3,495 nt of DNA from Naegleria gruberi (Eukaryota). The DNA lies in assembly GCA_000004985.1 (NCBI GenBank), contig GG739221.1. One strand, written 5' to 3'. This document shows positions 1 to 3,495 of the stretch, piece after piece. The notes beneath the pieces were generated by a model. The model was not told the DNA's origin. It worked only from the letters and a program-made list of their open reading frames with translations, and made no database searches. The position numbers and the translations under genes are program-made. Numbering within the stretch: the stretch's first letter is position 1; every line of letters starts with the position of its first letter.

Positions 1-1
1 G

Positions 2-133
2 ACTCACCATTGGAACCAGTGTTTGAAATTGGAAAAGACTGAAATTACAAGTCAAGATTTCCTTCAAGAACAGGTTTACTTGTTGGAGAAGAAGTTTGAA
101 AGAATGCTCAAAGGTAAGAGGGTAAGTCCAAAG
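2..133 (+). CDS. Candidate internal exon fragment (frame 2): 44 stop-free codons, THHWNQCLKLEKTEITSQDFLQEQVYLLEKKFERMLKGKRVSPK. The exon would end at 113 or 121 if the donor-like sites at 114 or 122 are used.
   Basis: Frame 2 is the only frame open from the left edge (frame 1 hits a stop at 40..42, frame 3 at 24..26). The charged, heptad-like composition is protein-like. The frame runs into AAG|GTAAGAG (GT at 114..115) and G|GTAAGT (GT at 122..123), both classic 5' splice-donor consensus, with an in-frame TAA at 134..136. There is no in-frame ATG before 104, so the exon would continue upstream of the window. Confidence 0.3.
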
Positions 134-456
134 TAAATGGTGGTCAATGGGTATGTTGGAGGTTTCGGCTGAGTTTGGATCTGCCAACATCAGATGATTC
201 CTTCAGCAACCAAAGGGAATTCAGTACAATCAATGGCTGAGCGGGCCACCAATGGTTGGGCGGGCCACCAACAACATTTCGCCGCACCAACAACATTTGA
301 CCGCCTCAACTGCTTCAGGCGTATAGGTAGCATGAGGCCTCTACTGGTCAACATTAAAAACATGGAAGACTGATTTTGTCATCATTCAATATGGAGTCTG
401 TATTCAGCTTGATACAGTGCGAATTGTTTCTTCATTGATTTGGGATGGAATTTCAG
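114..456 (+). other. Putative spliceosomal intron (~335-343 nt), GTAAGA/GTAAGT donor to TTTCAG acceptor
   Basis: Donor consensus at 114 and 122. No open frame longer than ~30 codons in any + frame across 137..410. A perfect pyrimidine-rich TTTCAG acceptor lies at 451..456, immediately followed by an open frame that runs to a TAA at 707. Caveat: joining 113 or 121 to 457 does not preserve the frame of the downstream ORF (codons from 458), so at least one of these assumptions is wrong. Confidence 0.3.
232..309. repeat. GC-rich block of two pairs of degenerate 19-nt tandem direct repeats
   Basis: Pair 1 is aatggctgagcgggccacc (232..250) and aatggttgggcgggccacc (251..269), 17/19 identical. Pair 2 is caacatttcgccgcaccaa (272..290) and caacatttgaccgcctcaa (291..309), 15/19 identical. 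The region is ~58% GC inside an otherwise ~35% GC segment. Confidence 0.7.
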
Positions 457-709
457 ACTGAGAGAATTACCAGAAATTGAATTGTTGCTCTCCGTTATTG
501 TTCACTTAATCAAAGTTGTAGCCATTTCGAATACTTTGATTGAAAACAACTATTTAAAAGAAAATGATAACAAGATTAAAAGTTTGAATGATGAAATCCA
601 CTGCTTAAGAGCAATCAATGAAGAATTGGTTCTAGCTGTGAGAACCAAGAACGAAGAACCTGTTCAACCAGTTGCTGAAGAAGTTCCACCAGTTGTTGCT
701 GCAGAATAA
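457..709 (+). CDS. Candidate terminal coding exon. The frame is open from 413. Product is a coiled-coil-like protein with a Pro/Val/Ala/Glu-rich C-terminus: ...LRELPEIELLLSVIVHLIKVVAISNTLIENNYLKENDNKIKSLNDEIHCLRAINEELVLAVRTKNEEPVQPVAEEVPPVVAAE*.
   Basis: The frame (codons at 458, 461, ...) is open from 413 to the TAA at 707..709, about 98 codons in AT-rich DNA. There is no in-frame ATG, so it is an internal or terminal exon and not a gene start; the ORF track's 'M' is a TTG at 440. A TTTCAG acceptor-like site sits at 451..456. Codon choice (CCA, GTT, GCT, GAA) is biased as in highly expressed nematode genes. AATAAA lies 20 nt after the stop. Confidence 0.4.
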
Positions 710-728
710 TTGAAAACTTACGATTACA

Positions 729-734
729 AATAAA
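729..734 (+). promoter_or_regulatory. AATAAA polyadenylation signal candidate for the gene ending at 709
   Basis: Canonical hexamer 20 nt downstream of the TAA stop (707..709), embedded in an A-run (728..737). Confidence 0.35.
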
Positions 735-774
735 AAACCTAGTGCCAGTATTTACCACTATCCATTCACCTTCT

Positions 775-798
775 TAAACTCATTATTAAACTCATTAT
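775..798. repeat. Perfect 12-nt tandem duplication (taaactcattat x2)
   Basis: Units 775..786 and 787..798 are identical in the sequence. Confidence 0.8.
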
Positions 799-1028
799 TT
801 CATCTCCATTACTTCACATATATTCCCTCATCTACTTGTTCTCAGTTAAAATTTGAAGATAAACACAATTATTGCAAAGGGTTACCTTCTTCAATGTTCG
901 TTTTCCCTCCCTGAGAGTGATTACAACCTTTATCAAGATTGTTTTTCTTTTCTCATCTTGTTTTTTTCAACTTGGTTAAATGGTCAATTGTCTTTGACAC
1001 ACTGAATCATCCTTAATTAGTGCGAGTC

Positions 1029-1035
1029 TATAAAA
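1029..1035 (+). promoter_or_regulatory. TATA-box-like element (TATAAAA) upstream of the ATG at 1096
   Basis: tcTATAAAAAttg lies 67 nt upstream of ATG 1096..1098, which opens a frame that runs straight into the N gap. The spacing fits TATA, then TSS, then a short 5'UTR, then ATG. An AT-rich genome gives such matches by chance. Confidence 0.2.
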
Positions 1036-1095
1036 ATTGAAACAAGGAAAAACCAATAACGCAATCCTTCTTGTTGCCTGTAACAAATACTTGTC

Positions 1096-1128
1096 ATGAC
1101 AAGCAGATGCCAAATCGGTTATTTATCA
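1096..1128 (+). CDS. Possible 5' end of a coding region (MTSRCQIGYLS...) running into the assembly gap. It may or may not be the start of the downstream EGF-repeat gene.
   Basis: ATG at 1096 with 11 codons open until the sequence turns to N at 1129. There is no support beyond the upstream TATA-like motif. The 11 residues are not yet signal-peptide-like. Confidence 0.12.
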
Positions 1129-1132
1129 NAAA

Positions 1133-2631
1133 NNNNNNNNNNNNNNNNNNNNNNNNNNNNNNNNNNNNNNNNNNNNNNNNNNNNNNNNNNNNNNNNNNNN
1201 NNNNNNNNNNNNNNNNNNNNNNNNNNNNNNNNNNNNNNNNNNNNNNNNNNNNNNNNNNNNNNNNNNNNNNNNNNNNNNNNNNNNNNNNNNNNNNNNNNNN
1301 NNNNNNNNNNNNNNNNNNNNNNNNNNNNNNNNNNNNNNNNNNNNNNNNNNNNNNNNNNNNNNNNNNNNNNNNNNNNNNNNNNNNNNNNNNNNNNNNNNNN
1401 NNNNNNNNNNNNNNNNNNNNNNNNNNNNNNNNNNNNNNNNNNNNNNNNNNNNNNNNNNNNNNNNNNNNNNNNNNNNNNNNNNNNNNNNNNNNNNNNNNNN
1501 NNNNNNNNNNNNNNNNNNNNNNNNNNNNNNNNNNNNNNNNNNNNNNNNNNNNNNNNNNNNNNNNNNNNNNNNNNNNNNNNNNNNNNNNNNNNNNNNNNNN
1601 NNNNNNNNNNNNNNNNNNNNNNNNNNNNNNNNNNNNNNNNNNNNNNNNNNNNNNNNNNNNNNNNNNNNNNNNNNNNNNNNNNNNNNNNNNNNNNNNNNNN
1701 NNNNNNNNNNNNNNNNNNNNNNNNNNNNNNNNNNNNNNNNNNNNNNNNNNNNNNNNNNNNNNNNNNNNNNNNNNNNNNNNNNNNNNNNNNNNNNNNNNNN
1801 NNNNNNNNNNNNNNNNNNNNNNNNNNNNNNNNNNNNNNNNNNNNNNNNNNNNNNNNNNNNNNNNNNNNNNNNNNNNNNNNNNNNNNNNNNNNNNNNNNNN
1901 NNNNNNNNNNNNNNNNNNNNNNNNNNNNNNNNNNNNNNNNNNNNNNNNNNNNNNNNNNNNNNNNNNNNNNNNNNNNNNNNNNNNNNNNNNNNNNNNNNNN
2001 NNNNNNNNNNNNNNNNNNNNNNNNNNNNNNNNNNNNNNNNNNNNNNNNNNNNNNNNNNNNNNNNNNNNNNNNNNNNNNNNNNNNNNNNNNNNNNNNNNNN
2101 NNNNNNNNNNNNNNNNNNNNNNNNNNNNNNNNNNNNNNNNNNNNNNNNNNNNNNNNNNNNNNNNNNNNNNNNNNNNNNNNNNNNNNNNNNNNNNNNNNNN
2201 NNNNNNNNNNNNNNNNNNNNNNNNNNNNNNNNNNNNNNNNNNNNNNNNNNNNNNNNNNNNNNNNNNNNNNNNNNNNNNNNNNNNNNNNNNNNNNNNNNNN
2301 NNNNNNNNNNNNNNNNNNNNNNNNNNNNNNNNNNNNNNNNNNNNNNNNNNNNNNNNNNNNNNNNNNNNNNNNNNNNNNNNNNNNNNNNNNNNNNNNNNNN
2401 NNNNNNNNNNNNNNNNNNNNNNNNNNNNNNNNNNNNNNNNNNNNNNNNNNNNNNNNNNNNNNNNNNNNNNNNNNNNNNNNNNNNNNNNNNNNNNNNNNNN
2501 NNNNNNNNNNNNNNNNNNNNNNNNNNNNNNNNNNNNNNNNNNNNNNNNNNNNNNNNNNNNNNNNNNNNNNNNNNNNNNNNNNNNNNNNNNNNNNNNNNNN
2601 NNNNNNNNNNNNNNNNNNNNNNNNNNNNNNN
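1133..2631. other. Assembly/scaffold gap: 1499 consecutive N (plus an isolated n at 1129)
   Basis: The N run is seen directly in the sequence. Its round ~1.5 kb length suggests an estimated-size scaffold gap. The true distance between and frame relation of the flanks are unknown. Confidence 0.97.
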
Positions 2632-3495
2632 ATCCCCAATATAGTGGAGATGTCTGTTCTGGAAGAGGTGTTTGTTTGAATTTTGACATTTGTAATTGTT
2701 TTAATAGTTCTCTTTGGGGAGGAGAATTTTGTGAAATTCCTAAATGTAATAATATAATGGCTAATGATACTAGTGTTTGTTCTGGAATTGGTACATGTGT
2801 CTATGCAAATAATTGCTCATGTTGGAATTCAACTTTTTGGGGAGGTCAAAATTGTGACATTCACAAATGTGGAAATGTTTTGGCAAATTCTCCAAGCGTA
2901 TGTTCAGGAAATGGAAATTGTCTAGCACCTGGAGTTTGTAACTGTACCGAAATGTATGGTGGTTCCAATTGTAACGTTCCTAAATGTTCGAATATTTTGG
3001 CCACTAGTCCAGAAGTTTGTTCCTATTCGAAAGGTCGATGTGTTTCTCCTAACAATTGTTCATGCTCTGAAGGATATCATGGAAGTAATTGTGAATTAGT
3101 TTCTTGCTTTGGTGTCAAGAACACTAGTTTGAATGTTTGCTCAGGAAAGGGAGTTTGTCTCTCATTGAACAATTGTACATGTCAACAAGGTTTCTATGGA
3201 GAAAAGTGTCAGTATTACGATTGTTTCAGTGTAAGAAATGATAAGAAGGATGTTTGTTCATCACATGGTAATTGTTCCAATATCGATACATGTAATTGTA
3301 CAAAACCTTACTATGGAACAAACTGTGAAAAATTTGATTGTTATGGAAAGGCTCAAGATTCGATTTCAGTTTGTTCTTCAAGAGGATTCTGCTCATCACT
3401 TGATAACTGCACATGTCAAGAAGGATATTATGGAAAAGAATGTGAAAAATTCAACTGTTATGGAGTGATTCACTCAACTCTACAGTCTGTTCAGG
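2632..3495 (+). CDS. Partial CDS (5' end lost in gap, 3' end beyond window) for a secreted/extracellular multi-EGF-like repeat protein. 283 codons are visible with no stop: ...PQYSGDVCSGRGVCLNFDICNCFNSSLWGGEFCEIPKCNNIMANDTSVCSGIGTCVYANNCSCWNSTFWGGQNCDIHKCGNVLANSPSVCSGNGNCLAPGVCNCTEMYGGSNCNVPKCSNILATSPEVCSYSKGRCVSPNNCSCSEGYHGSNCELVSCFGVKNTSLNVCSGKGVCLSLNNCTCQQGFYGEKCQYYDCFSVRNDKKDVCSSHGNCSNIDTCNCTKPYYGTNCEKFDCYGKAQDSISVCSSRGFCSSLDNCTCQEGYYGKECEKFNCYGVIHSTLQSVQ...
   Basis: Frame with codons starting at positions divisible by 3; the first complete codon is 2634..2636. It is stop-free for 287 codons in ~33% GC DNA. A strict 6-Cys periodicity (39-41 aa) matches EGF-like domains and the PROSITE EGF_2 pattern C-x-C-x(2)-[GP]-[FYW]-x(4,8)-C. 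Cys is always TGT/TGC, and Gly is mostly GGA/GGT. It is absent from the supplied ORF track only because it has no stop or start inside the window. Confidence 0.85.
2745..3455 (+). repeat. Tandem array of six complete EGF-like coding modules (117-123 nt each), plus partial modules at 2632..2744 and 3456..3495
   Basis: Module boundaries, taken at the first Cys of each unit: R1 2745..2867, R2 2868..2984, R3 2985..3104, R4 3105..3221, R5 3222..3338, R6 3339..3455. Each encodes C-x(9-10)-C-S-[GSY]-x(1,2)-G-x-C-x(5)-C-x-C-x(3,4)-[FYW]-[GYH]-G-x(2)-C-x(4). Conservation is at the protein level, not the nucleotide level, so these are old duplications and not a recent repeat expansion. Confidence 0.8.

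What the first reader, a model, noticed from the sequence alone, without database searches (positions are those of the whole stretch)
2632..3495. Unlisted open frame encoding at least 7 tandem EGF-like modules, truncated by the gap and the window edge
The most information-rich part of the window is invisible in the ORF track. A 287-codon stop-free frame carries a rigid repeat of six cysteines per ~40 residues with the C-x-C-x(2)-[GP]-[FYW]-x(4)-C signature of laminin/tenascin/integrin-beta-type EGF modules, including a recurrent V-C-S-G-x-G-x-C core. Such arrays are typical of extracellular matrix, adhesion or receptor ectodomains. The full protein is probably much larger, because the frame is open into the N gap on the left and continues past 3495.
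Basis: partly seen in the sequence, partly recalled or inferred. Interest (0 to 1): 0.6.

Follow-up and report, generated by a model that had tools for sequence, protein, structure and literature searches.

The report
Naegleria EGF-repeat receptor gene fragment
The open frame is real: it is the start of a long EGF-repeat stalk from a surface receptor-like protein of the amoeba Naegleria, one more copy of a large, already sequenced but unstudied gene family, so it is ordinary rather than surprising.

Summary
Confirmed. Frame 2634..3494 (+) has no stop in 287 codons and holds 42 cysteines spaced (10,5,5,1,8-10,4) seven times. Shuffled sequence never gave an open frame above 143 codons. Pfam EGF_2, EGF_Teneurin and EGF_TEN all pass their curated cut-offs. 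A two-module AlphaFold model (pLDDT 90) superposes on tandem EGFs of HHIP, Jagged and DLL.

The host is Naegleria. The upstream gene matches an N. gruberi protein at 38/38 residues. The EGF frame aligns module by module (66% aa, 71.5% nt) to residues 347-622 of N. gruberi NAEGRDRAFT_49308. That 2,167-aa protein reads signal peptide, NHL propeller, 13 EGF modules, about 950 aa of ectodomain, TM helix, kinase domain. All 42 cysteines are conserved and dN/dS is about 0.2.

The window therefore shows modules 1-7 and the start of module 8 of a paralogue or close orthologue. The N-terminal ~346 aa probably lie in the N gap.

One correction: one base is missing between 3468 and 3469, so the true frame shifts there. 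It is probably a sequencing error, because the unrelated upstream gene carries a similar 1-nt deletion.

The modules are six-cysteine tenascin/teneurin/WIF-type EGF, not laminin or integrin-beta type. This is a new member of a known, uncharacterised kind. Interest is low.

The parts
2634..3468 (+). Stop-free coding frame (278 codons plus the first base of the next codon). It covers EGF modules 1-7 and the first residues of module 8 of an NHL-EGF receptor-like protein. It is open into the N gap on the left.
   Evidence: Translation; shuffles; Pfam EGF_2, EGF_Teneurin and EGF_TEN above cut-off; 66% aa identity, collinear, to P0157 residues 347-622; dN/dS 0.20 and 42/42 Cys conserved.
2634..2747 (+). 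EGF module 1, lacking its first cysteine, which should lie about 4 codons inside the gap. WGG-type C5-C6 loop of 10 residues.
   Evidence: Module parsing. Best match is module 1 of P0044 at 58%, against 26-50% to that protein's other modules.
2748..2870 (+). EGF module 2 (41 aa, WGG-type C5-C6 loop of 10 residues).
   Evidence: best match is module 2 of P0044 (64%).
2871..2987 (+). EGF module 3 (39 aa).
   Evidence: best match is module 3 of P0044 (59%).
2988..3107 (+). EGF module 4 (40 aa; variant C2-C3 loop of 6 residues, VCSYSKGRC).
   Evidence: best match is module 4 of P0044 (59%).
3108..3224 (+). EGF module 5 (39 aa).
   Evidence: 72% to module 5 of P0044. Part of the AF2 two-module model with pLDDT 90.1.
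3225..3341 (+). EGF module 6 (39 aa).
   Evidence: 77% to module 6 of P0044. AF2 model and Foldseek match to tandem EGFs.
3342..3458 (+). EGF module 7 (39 aa).
   Evidence: 77% to module 7 of P0044.
3468..3469 (+). Site of a missing base (frameshift) relative to the closest relative: window gtg a-t tca against gtg agt tca.
   Evidence: DNA alignment with L004; frame-2633 translation ends ...DSLNSTVCS; the homologue reads GVSSLNSTVCSS.
3470..3495 (+). Continuation of module 8 (SLNSTVCSG...) in the frame of 2633, cut by the window edge.
1133..2631 (.). Run of 1499 N (assembly gap or mask). It is inferred to hide the start codon, the signal peptide and an NHL beta-propeller of about 300 aa belonging to the same gene.
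   Evidence: Inference. In P0157/P0044, 346 residues (1,046 nt in L004, with no intron) precede the aligned point. That places the start near window position 1600 if the gap size is accurate.

Best explanation
Window 2634..3495 is part of a single large exon of a Naegleria (N. gruberi or a very close relative) gene. It encodes the first seven and a bit of a tandem array of six-cysteine, non-calcium-binding EGF modules of tenascin/teneurin/WIF-1 type. The gene is a paralogue, or a close-species orthologue, of N. gruberi NAEGRDRAFT_49308. That relative is a type I membrane protein built as signal peptide, NHL beta-propeller, 13 EGF modules, about 950 aa of further ectodomain, one TM helix and a cytoplasmic protein-kinase domain. 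SHOWN: the frame is coding and has evolved under purifying selection; the modules are EGF by profile and by predicted fold; the array is positionally homologous to modules 1-8 of the relative; the organismal context is Naegleria. INFERRED: the N gap hides the signal peptide and NHL propeller; beyond 3495 lie about 5 more EGF modules, a membrane anchor and probably a kinase or pseudokinase domain. The EGF array would then work as a stiff, disulfide-locked, N-glycosylated stalk (11 N-x-S/T sequons in 287 aa). It would hold the ligand-binding propeller tens of nanometres from the membrane and couple binding or clustering to the cytoplasmic domain. The 1-nt break at 3468/3469 is most likely a sequencing or assembly error.
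For: Open frame of 287 codons against a maximum of 143 in 2000 shuffles, and a 7-fold regular Cys pattern. Pfam EGF_2 5e-21, EGF_Teneurin 1e-20 and EGF_TEN 2e-19, all above their gathering cut-offs. PDB sequence and profile hits are all EGF arrays: WIF-1 at 1.6e-7 and 1.8e-15 with a profile, then mastigoneme proteins, DLL1 and teneurin-2/3. The AF2 two-module model has pLDDT 90.1, and its Foldseek best matches are the tandem EGFs of HHIP (TMq 0.64), Jagged and DLL. Upstream exon 1 is identical to N. gruberi P0006 at 38/38 residues: 33 in one frame and 5 (LTIGT) in the neighbouring frame. BLASTP against P0157 gives 66% identity over 279 aa, collinear, while the next best family member is about 45%. 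Nucleotide identity to L004 is 71.5% over 861 nt. Each window module matches the same-numbered module of the relative best (58-77%), against 28-51% between modules within the window. dN/dS is 0.20, dS is 1.26, 42/42 Cys are conserved, and GC3 is 0.20 in both genes. P0157 architecture comes from Pfam NHL, TEN_NHL, EGF_TEN and Pkinase, plus the N-terminal hydrophobic leader and TM helix 1833-1854. The relative's gene is one intron-free 6.5-kb ORF in L004. The family census found 1,729 representatives, and every named one checked is Naegleria gruberi, N. fowleri or N. lovaniensis.
Against: Only 287 codons are visible. NHL, TM and kinase are not seen in the window. Most of the 150 best-scoring family representatives have neither NHL nor kinase similar to P0157 (134 of 160 proteins checked), so the downstream architecture rests on the 66% collinear match alone. 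One base is missing at 3468/3469, so a pseudogene cannot be excluded. No identical protein or contig was found in any collection, so the exact source, and whether the gene is already annotated, are unknown. There is no expression or functional evidence for any member of the family.
Confidence: 0.85

Rival explanations
1. It is a real EGF-array gene of the same Naegleria superfamily but without a kinase. It would be a secreted or simply membrane-anchored adhesion or surface-coat protein, like most members of the family.
For: Of the proteins checked, only P0044/P0157, P0051 and P0131 have a kinase domain, and 26 have an NHL region. Many are pure arrays of up to 62 modules, often with a single C-terminal TM helix. 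P0018, P0080 and P0107 are NHL+EGF with no kinase. An 'EGF-like domain-containing protein' occurs in the N. fowleri excretory/secretory proteome (PMC12089049).
Against: The window is far closer to the kinase-bearing P0157 (66%, module-for-module) than to any other member (45% or less). Domain architecture is usually conserved at that distance.
Confidence: 0.25
2. It is a pseudogene: a decaying duplicate of NAEGRDRAFT_49308 in which the 1-nt deletion at 3468/3469 is real.
For: A 1-nt gap against the relative falls exactly where the conserved protein sequence changes frame. No identical predicted protein was found.
Against: There are 278 codons with no stop. All 42 cysteines are kept and dN/dS is 0.20, so any inactivation would be very recent. 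The unrelated upstream gene has the same kind of defect, one base missing at 18/19 relative to N. gruberi P0006. Two such defects in two genes point to draft-quality sequence next to a gap.
Confidence: 0.12
3. It is a metazoan-type matrix or adhesion gene (a tenascin, teneurin, laminin or integrin-beta orthologue). It would be present through contamination or horizontal transfer.
For: Pfam EGF_TEN and EGF_Teneurin hits. Teneurin-2/3 appear among the PDB profile hits.
Against: All strong relatives are Naegleria proteins. Codon usage and GC3 match a Naegleria gene. The adjacent gene is N. gruberi-like. The relative has type I topology with NHL before the EGF array and a kinase tail, and no YD-shell or toxin domain. 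The modules have six Cys, not eight, and there is no Laminin_EGF hit.
Confidence: 0.02
4. It is a chance open frame in AT-rich, repetitive non-coding DNA.
For: None beyond the absence of a start and a stop codon in the window.
Against: Shuffles never exceed 143 codons. There are profile hits at E about 1e-20. Third codon positions diverge about twice as fast as first and second positions (0.43 against 0.25 and 0.20) and dN/dS is 0.2. TRF finds no DNA-level tandem repeat.
Confidence: 0.01

Closest known systems
Naegleria gruberi NAEGRDRAFT_49308 (XP_002676784.1 / D2VGC0_NAEGR, 2,167 aa, 'predicted protein'), with a near-identical copy P0044 on ENA metagenome contig L004
   Same: 66% aa and 71.5% nt identity. 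Modules 1-8 match one-to-one, including the two WGG-type modules and the variant fourth module. Codon usage is the same, and the relative's ORF is intron-free.
   Different: It is not the same gene. dS is about 1.3. The neighbouring gene in the window (P0006-like) sits on a 304-kb scaffold in N. gruberi, whereas NAEGRDRAFT_49308 sits on a 418-kb scaffold. NHL, TM and kinase are not visible in the window.
Other Naegleria NHL-EGF-TM-kinase proteins: NAEGRDRAFT_70916 (P0051) and N. fowleri FDP41_013523 (P0131/P0162)
   Same: The same module type, and the same overall architecture as the closest relative. They also share a conserved GPS-like C...W...C-x3-HL[ST]-x-F motif 45-55 aa before the TM helix.
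   Different: Only about 42-44% identical to the window. They keep the HRD catalytic motif, whereas NAEGRDRAFT_49308 has HGN.
Teneurin ectodomain (Pfam EGF_TEN, TEN_NHL)
   Same: Six-cysteine tenascin-type EGF repeats are combined with an NHL beta-propeller in one ectodomain. EGF_TEN scores above its cut-off in the window, and TEN_NHL in the relatives.
   Different: Teneurins are type II proteins ordered TM, 8 EGF, NHL, YD shell, toxin-like domain (established knowledge). Here the order is NHL, EGF, TM, kinase with type I topology, and no YD or Tox-GHH domain was detected. The C1-C2 loop is 10 residues, giving a 39-41-aa period instead of about 31-33.
WIF-1 and HHIP tandem EGF domains (PDB 2ygq; 7pgn, 3ho3)
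   Same: These are the best sequence (1.8e-15) and fold (TMq 0.64, rmsd 3.6 over 76 columns) matches among solved structures. They are non-calcium-binding six-Cys EGFs in tandem. HHIP also pairs a beta-propeller with EGFs.
   Different: They have 2-5 modules and sit in secreted or anchored metazoan morphogen antagonists. Identity is about 26%. No orthology is implied.
Entamoeba histolytica transmembrane kinases (cysteine-rich ectodomain, TM, kinase) - recalled from the literature, not tested here
   Same: They are a protist lineage-specific expansion of type I receptor kinases and pseudokinases with cysteine-rich repeat ectodomains. They are a plausible analogue for how this protein works.
   Different: Their ectodomain repeats are of a different type (CXXC/CXC, not EGF with NHL). 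No sequence relation was tested.

Membership tests
EGF-like domain (Pfam clan EGF; EGF_2 / tenascin-teneurin type) | Profile match above the curated threshold | tested here: met
   EGF_2 scores 75.1 bits (cut-off 22.1) with 7 stretches. EGF_Teneurin scores 73.7 (24.3) and EGF_TEN 70.4 (65).
EGF-like domain (Pfam clan EGF; EGF_2 / tenascin-teneurin type) | Six cysteines per module with C4-x-C5 and a C5-x8-C6 loop containing an aromatic residue and Gly | tested here: met
   The spacing is 10,5(6),5,1,8(10),4 in all seven modules. PROSITE-style EGF_1 matches 5 of 7 modules and EGF_2 matches 4 of 7.
EGF-like domain (Pfam clan EGF; EGF_2 / tenascin-teneurin type) | EGF fold (two small beta-hairpins per module) | tested here: met
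   The AF2 model of modules 5-6 has pLDDT 90.1 with two hairpins per module. Its Foldseek top hits are tandem EGFs of HHIP, Jagged, DLL and Notch.
EGF-like domain (Pfam clan EGF; EGF_2 / tenascin-teneurin type) | Disulfide connectivity C1-C3, C2-C4, C5-C6 | not testable with these tools
Calcium-binding EGF (EGF_CA) | N-terminal D/N-x-D/N-E/Q-C consensus and an EGF_CA profile hit | tested here: not met
   There is no EGF_CA hit at E<=10. The residues before C1 read EIPK, DIHK, NVPK, ELVS, QYYD, EKFD and EKFN.
Laminin-type EGF | Eight cysteines per module of about 50-60 aa, and a Laminin_EGF profile hit | tested here: not met
   There are six Cys per 39-41 aa, and no Laminin_EGF hit at E<=10.
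Integrin beta I-EGF | Eight cysteines per module, with an integrin beta context | tested here: not met
   The modules have six Cys. No integrin model appears in Pfam. Integrin beta chains superpose poorly, with TMq 0.35-0.39 and rmsd 6-7.
Teneurin | Type II topology, 8 EGF modules, NHL, YD-repeat shell and a C-terminal toxin-like domain | tested here: not met
   Tested on the closest full-length relative. It has a signal peptide, NHL before the EGF array, a C-terminal TM helix and a kinase, and no YD or Tox domain in Pfam. This cannot be tested on the window itself.
Naegleria NHL-EGF-TM-kinase receptor-like family (NAEGRDRAFT_49308-like) | EGF array positionally homologous to that of the reference member | tested here: met
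   66% identity, collinear. Module i matches module i best for all 7 modules.
Naegleria NHL-EGF-TM-kinase receptor-like family (NAEGRDRAFT_49308-like) | N-terminal signal peptide and NHL beta-propeller | not testable with these tools
   These would lie in the N run 1133..2631. The 346-aa (1,046-nt) N-terminal part of the relative fits inside it.
Naegleria NHL-EGF-TM-kinase receptor-like family (NAEGRDRAFT_49308-like) | C-terminal TM helix and protein-kinase domain | not testable with these tools
   These lie beyond the window end. No contig carrying the locus was found.

The most novel reading that the evidence does not exclude
The window gene is an unannotated member of a Naegleria-specific family of type I receptor kinases and pseudokinases. 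Their ectodomain joins an NHL propeller to a long EGF stalk and ends in a GPS-like (HL|S/T) motif just before the membrane. That would be an independent, non-metazoan assembly of adhesion-GPCR/teneurin-like ectodomain parts onto a kinase. It could be cleaved autoproteolytically and used for prey, substrate or self recognition.
Probability: 0.35. Interest if true: 0.45.

Novelty: new member of a known kind. Interest (0 to 1): 0.22.

Why it matters
For the scan, this shows that a gene hidden from the ORF track by a gap and the window edge is real and can be named: a Naegleria NHL-EGF receptor-like paralogue. The finding also carries a correctable 1-nt error. Biologically it adds one copy to a very large expansion of EGF-array surface proteins that is already sequenced: 1,729 cluster representatives, some with more than 60 modules. 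Nobody appears to have studied this expansion. In free-living and pathogenic Naegleria such proteins are candidates for adhesion, prey or host recognition and signalling. This fragment alone does not open a new question.

Tried and rejected
1. Locating the source or a gap-spanning contig. I tried an exact 44-mer in viral contigs and genome contigs. I tried protein-guided scans of metagenome contigs with the EGF frame and with the upstream gene. I tried exact-product look-ups for P0006, P0157 and three possible prokaryote-style calls of the upstream ORF. All came back empty.

2. The word-indexed homologue search was nearly blind to this composition. It gave 4 weak hits for the full frame and none for modules 4-7. 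It missed the 66% relative, which the exhaustive HMMER search then found. I therefore cannot say whether an identical protein is already in public databases.

3. The full-length AF2 model built on a 5-row alignment had pLDDT 42 and was discarded. It was replaced by the two-module model.

4. NCBIfam gave no hit, Rfam none and the tRNA scan none.

5. Pfam found no GPS, GAIN, REJ or PKD model in the relative's juxtamembrane region at E<=10, apart from a sub-threshold PKD hit at 0.093. The GPS-like motif therefore remains a by-eye observation.

6. Literature searches for the locus tag and accessions, and for Naegleria with EGF, NHL, receptor kinase or kinome, found nothing specific.

7. I considered and rejected a ciliate or diplomonad origin, because there are no in-frame TAA/TAG codons and Gln is encoded by CAA/CAG. 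I also rejected a giant-virus origin, because of the spliced neighbouring gene and the Naegleria-only relatives.

Full report
OBSERVATION. The window consists of real sequence at 1..1128, a lone N at 1129, a run of 1499 N at 1133..2631, and real sequence at 2632..3495. On the + strand the frame that starts at 2634 has no stop codon up to 3494, which is 287 codons. The other five frames of the same segment carry 8-32 stops. In 2000 shuffles of the segment the longest open frame averaged 71 codons and never exceeded 143.

The translation has 42 cysteines (14.6%). Their spacings repeat seven times as 10, 5 (once 6), 5, 1, 8 or 10, 4, giving six Cys per 39-41 residues. At DNA level the copies are only 60-76% alike at 117/123-nt spacing, and Tandem Repeats Finder reports nothing there. 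This is therefore an old protein-level repeat, not a recent DNA repeat.

VCSGxGxC fits 4 modules, or 6 if the Gly may be Ser. The frame is missing from the ORF list only because ORFs that run off the source are not listed.

IS IT EGF? Pfam gives EGF_2 (5.4e-21, 75.1 bits against a cut-off of 22.1, seven stretches), EGF_Teneurin (1.2e-20) and EGF_TEN (2.2e-19, 70.4 against 65). Weaker hits go to Jagged/Delta-type EGF models. Nothing appears for Laminin_EGF, EGF_CA or integrin models, even at E<=10.

Against solved structures the best sequence match is the EGF array of WIF-1 (1.6e-7). A profile built from 14 two-module segments raises this to 1.8e-15. It is followed by stramenopile mastigoneme proteins (9ufe), DLL1, teneurin-2/3, Notch, reelin and HHIP.

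A whole-fragment AlphaFold model with a 5-row alignment was poor (pLDDT 42) and was not used. A model of modules 5-6, using the window's other module pairs and those of four homologues as the alignment, reached pLDDT 90.1 with two beta-hairpins per module. Foldseek places it on the tandem EGFs of HHIP (TMq 0.64, rmsd 3.6 over 76 columns), Jagged-1/2 and DLL1/4. Integrin beta chains fit poorly (TMq 0.35-0.39).

The modules are thus six-cysteine, non-calcium-binding EGF domains of the tenascin/teneurin/WIF type. Their C1-C2 loop is unusually long at 10 residues. They are not laminin-type or integrin I-EGF modules.

WHOSE GENE? The left part of the window holds the 3' end of another + strand gene. 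Its first visible exon (to 113) is identical over 33 residues, plus 5 more (LTIGT) in the neighbouring frame, to the Naegleria gruberi 'predicted protein' P0006.

The word-indexed protein search found only four weak relatives of the EGF frame. The exhaustive HMMER search found 1,729 cluster representatives (308 at E<=1e-30), many of them giant proteins of 2,000-7,000 aa. Every named member I looked up is from N. gruberi, N. fowleri or N. lovaniensis. The rest come from metagenomes or transcriptomes.

The closest is NAEGRDRAFT_49308 (P0157, 2,167 aa) together with its near-identical metagenomic copy P0044. The match is 66% identity over 279 residues, collinear with residues 347-622, and 71.5% nucleotide identity over 861 nt of contig L004. 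The next best family member reaches about 45%.

Each window module matches the same-numbered module of the relative best (58, 64, 59, 59, 72, 77, 77%). Modules within the window are only 28-51% alike. The window therefore shows modules 1-7, and the beginning of module 8, of an array that has 13 modules in the relative.

All 42 cysteines are conserved. Codon positions 1, 2 and 3 differ at 0.25, 0.20 and 0.43, and dN/dS is 0.20 with dS about 1.26. GC3 is 0.20 in both genes. The frame is a protein-coding sequence that has been under purifying selection, in Naegleria codon usage.

In N. gruberi, P0006 lies on a 304-kb scaffold and NAEGRDRAFT_49308 on a 418-kb scaffold. Combined with dS above 1, this makes the window gene a paralogue, or the orthologue in a closely related species, rather than NAEGRDRAFT_49308 itself.

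ARCHITECTURE AND LIKELY MECHANISM. The relative has an N-terminal hydrophobic leader, NHL repeats (Pfam NHL 3.9e-27, TEN_NHL) and the EGF array at 341-852. About 950 residues follow with no Pfam match. Then come a TM helix at 1833-1854 and a C-terminal Pkinase domain (6.9e-30). Its gene is a single intron-free 6.5-kb ORF in L004.

By inference, the 346 residues (1,046 nt) that precede the aligned point would fit inside the 1499-N run. That puts the start codon near window position 1600. Beyond 3495 one expects about 5 more EGF modules, the rest of the ectodomain, a membrane anchor and probably a kinase or pseudokinase.

The most likely role of the visible part is structural. It would be a rigid, disulfide-locked, glycosylated stalk (11 N-x-S/T sequons) that projects the NHL propeller from the cell surface of a type I receptor-like protein. 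This step is inference from architecture, since no member of the family has been studied.

The main alternative is that the gene lacks the kinase. Most of the family does: 134 of 160 proteins checked have neither a P0157-like NHL region nor a kinase, and many are pure arrays with a C-terminal TM helix.

A CORRECTION AT THE 3' END. In the nominal frame the last residues read CYGVIHSTLQSVQ, which breaks the pattern. The frame of 2633 reads ...DSLNSTVCS, and the relative reads CFGVSSLNSTVCSS at that exact place. The DNA alignment shows one base missing in the window between 3468 and 3469: gtg a-t tca against gtg agt tca.

The upstream gene has the same kind of defect. One A is missing between 18 and 19 relative to the P0006 coding sequence (acc aag tgt), which throws LTIGT and CLKLEK... 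into different frames. Two single-base deletions in two unrelated genes within about 2 kb of real sequence, next to a gap and an isolated N, are best explained by draft sequence quality. A very recent pseudogene cannot be excluded.

COMPARISON WITH KNOWN SYSTEMS. The domain is a bona fide EGF-like domain. The combination of NHL with tenascin-type EGF recalls teneurins, and the teneurin-derived Pfam models score. But the relative has the opposite topology and domain order, a kinase tail and no YD shell or toxin domain, so it is not a teneurin.

Functionally the nearest analogues are lineage-specific protist receptor kinases with cysteine-rich ectodomains, such as the Entamoeba transmembrane kinases. 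I recall these from the literature and did not test them here.

I found no paper on this Naegleria family. The only related mention is an 'EGF-like domain-containing protein' in the N. fowleri secretome (PMC12089049). Searches for the locus tag and for Naegleria with EGF, NHL, receptor kinase or kinome returned nothing specific.

VERDICT. The organism and gene family are identified, and the frame needs a 1-nt correction. The gene is a new, probably unannotated or gap-truncated, member of a known but uncharacterised Naegleria family. A specialist would not be surprised. Interest is low (0.22). The most novel reading still open concerns the family rather than this fragment: NHL-EGF receptor kinases and pseudokinases with a conserved GPS-like motif before the membrane.

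Noticed in passing
window 1-709 (+): This is the 3' end of a neighbouring gene. Exon 1 (to 113) is identical to N. gruberi predicted protein P0006 over 38 residues. A GTAAG donor lies at 114. A candidate acceptor AG at 472-473 would join in frame to an ORF at 474..709 (TAA at 707-709). That ORF encodes a coiled-coil-like tail ending ...PVVAAE. P0006's annotated C-terminus (LSAIRIILLITTI) is not encoded anywhere in 1..1128, so either the public model or this splice guess is wrong. Neither version has a Pfam hit.
   Followed up: partly
window 18/19: One base is missing relative to the N. gruberi P0006 coding sequence (acc a[a]g tgt). It splits LTIGT (frame 3) from CLKLEK... (frame 2). This is the same kind of 1-nt deletion as at 3468/3469, which suggests draft-quality sequence.
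   Followed up: partly
window 231-303: Two adjacent 19-nt tandem duplications (CAATGGCTGAGCGGGCCAC x2, then CACCAACAACATTTCGCCG x2) sit in a locally GC-rich stretch (48% against about 33%). They lie inside the candidate intron of the upstream gene. Their meaning is unknown.
   Followed up: no
window 1129-2631: An isolated N at 1129, then 'aaa', then exactly 1499 N. It looks like an estimated-size scaffold gap with a low-quality read end beside it. An ATG at 1096 opens a frame into the gap (MTSRCQIGYLS...). It does not resemble a signal peptide and cannot be phased with the EGF frame.
   Followed up: no
relatives P0157 (~1776-1790), P0051 (~2501), P0131 (~1744); not in the window: All three kinase-bearing relatives share a GPS-like motif, C-x8-9-W ... 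C-x3-H-L-[ST]-x-F, 45-55 residues before the TM helix. That is the position of the autoproteolytic GPS of adhesion GPCRs and polycystin-1. Pfam GPS does not hit at E<=10, so this is only a by-eye lead.
   Followed up: partly
relative P0157/P0044 kinase domain (~2031); not in the window: The catalytic loop reads HGNIKTSN instead of HRDxKxxN, so the catalytic Asp is replaced by Asn, while DFG is kept. The paralogues P0051 and N. fowleri P0131 keep HRD. The closest relative of the window gene may therefore be a receptor pseudokinase.
   Followed up: partly
family-wide: The same 39-41-aa module builds giant Naegleria proteins with up to about 62 modules and 4,500-7,000 aa. It also occurs fused to RCC1 repeats (P0004, P0012). 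The word-indexed homologue search missed almost the whole family.
   Followed up: partly
window 774-799: A perfect 12-nt tandem duplication (TTAAACTCATTA x2.2) lies in the intergenic or 3'-UTR region after the upstream gene's stop.
   Followed up: no
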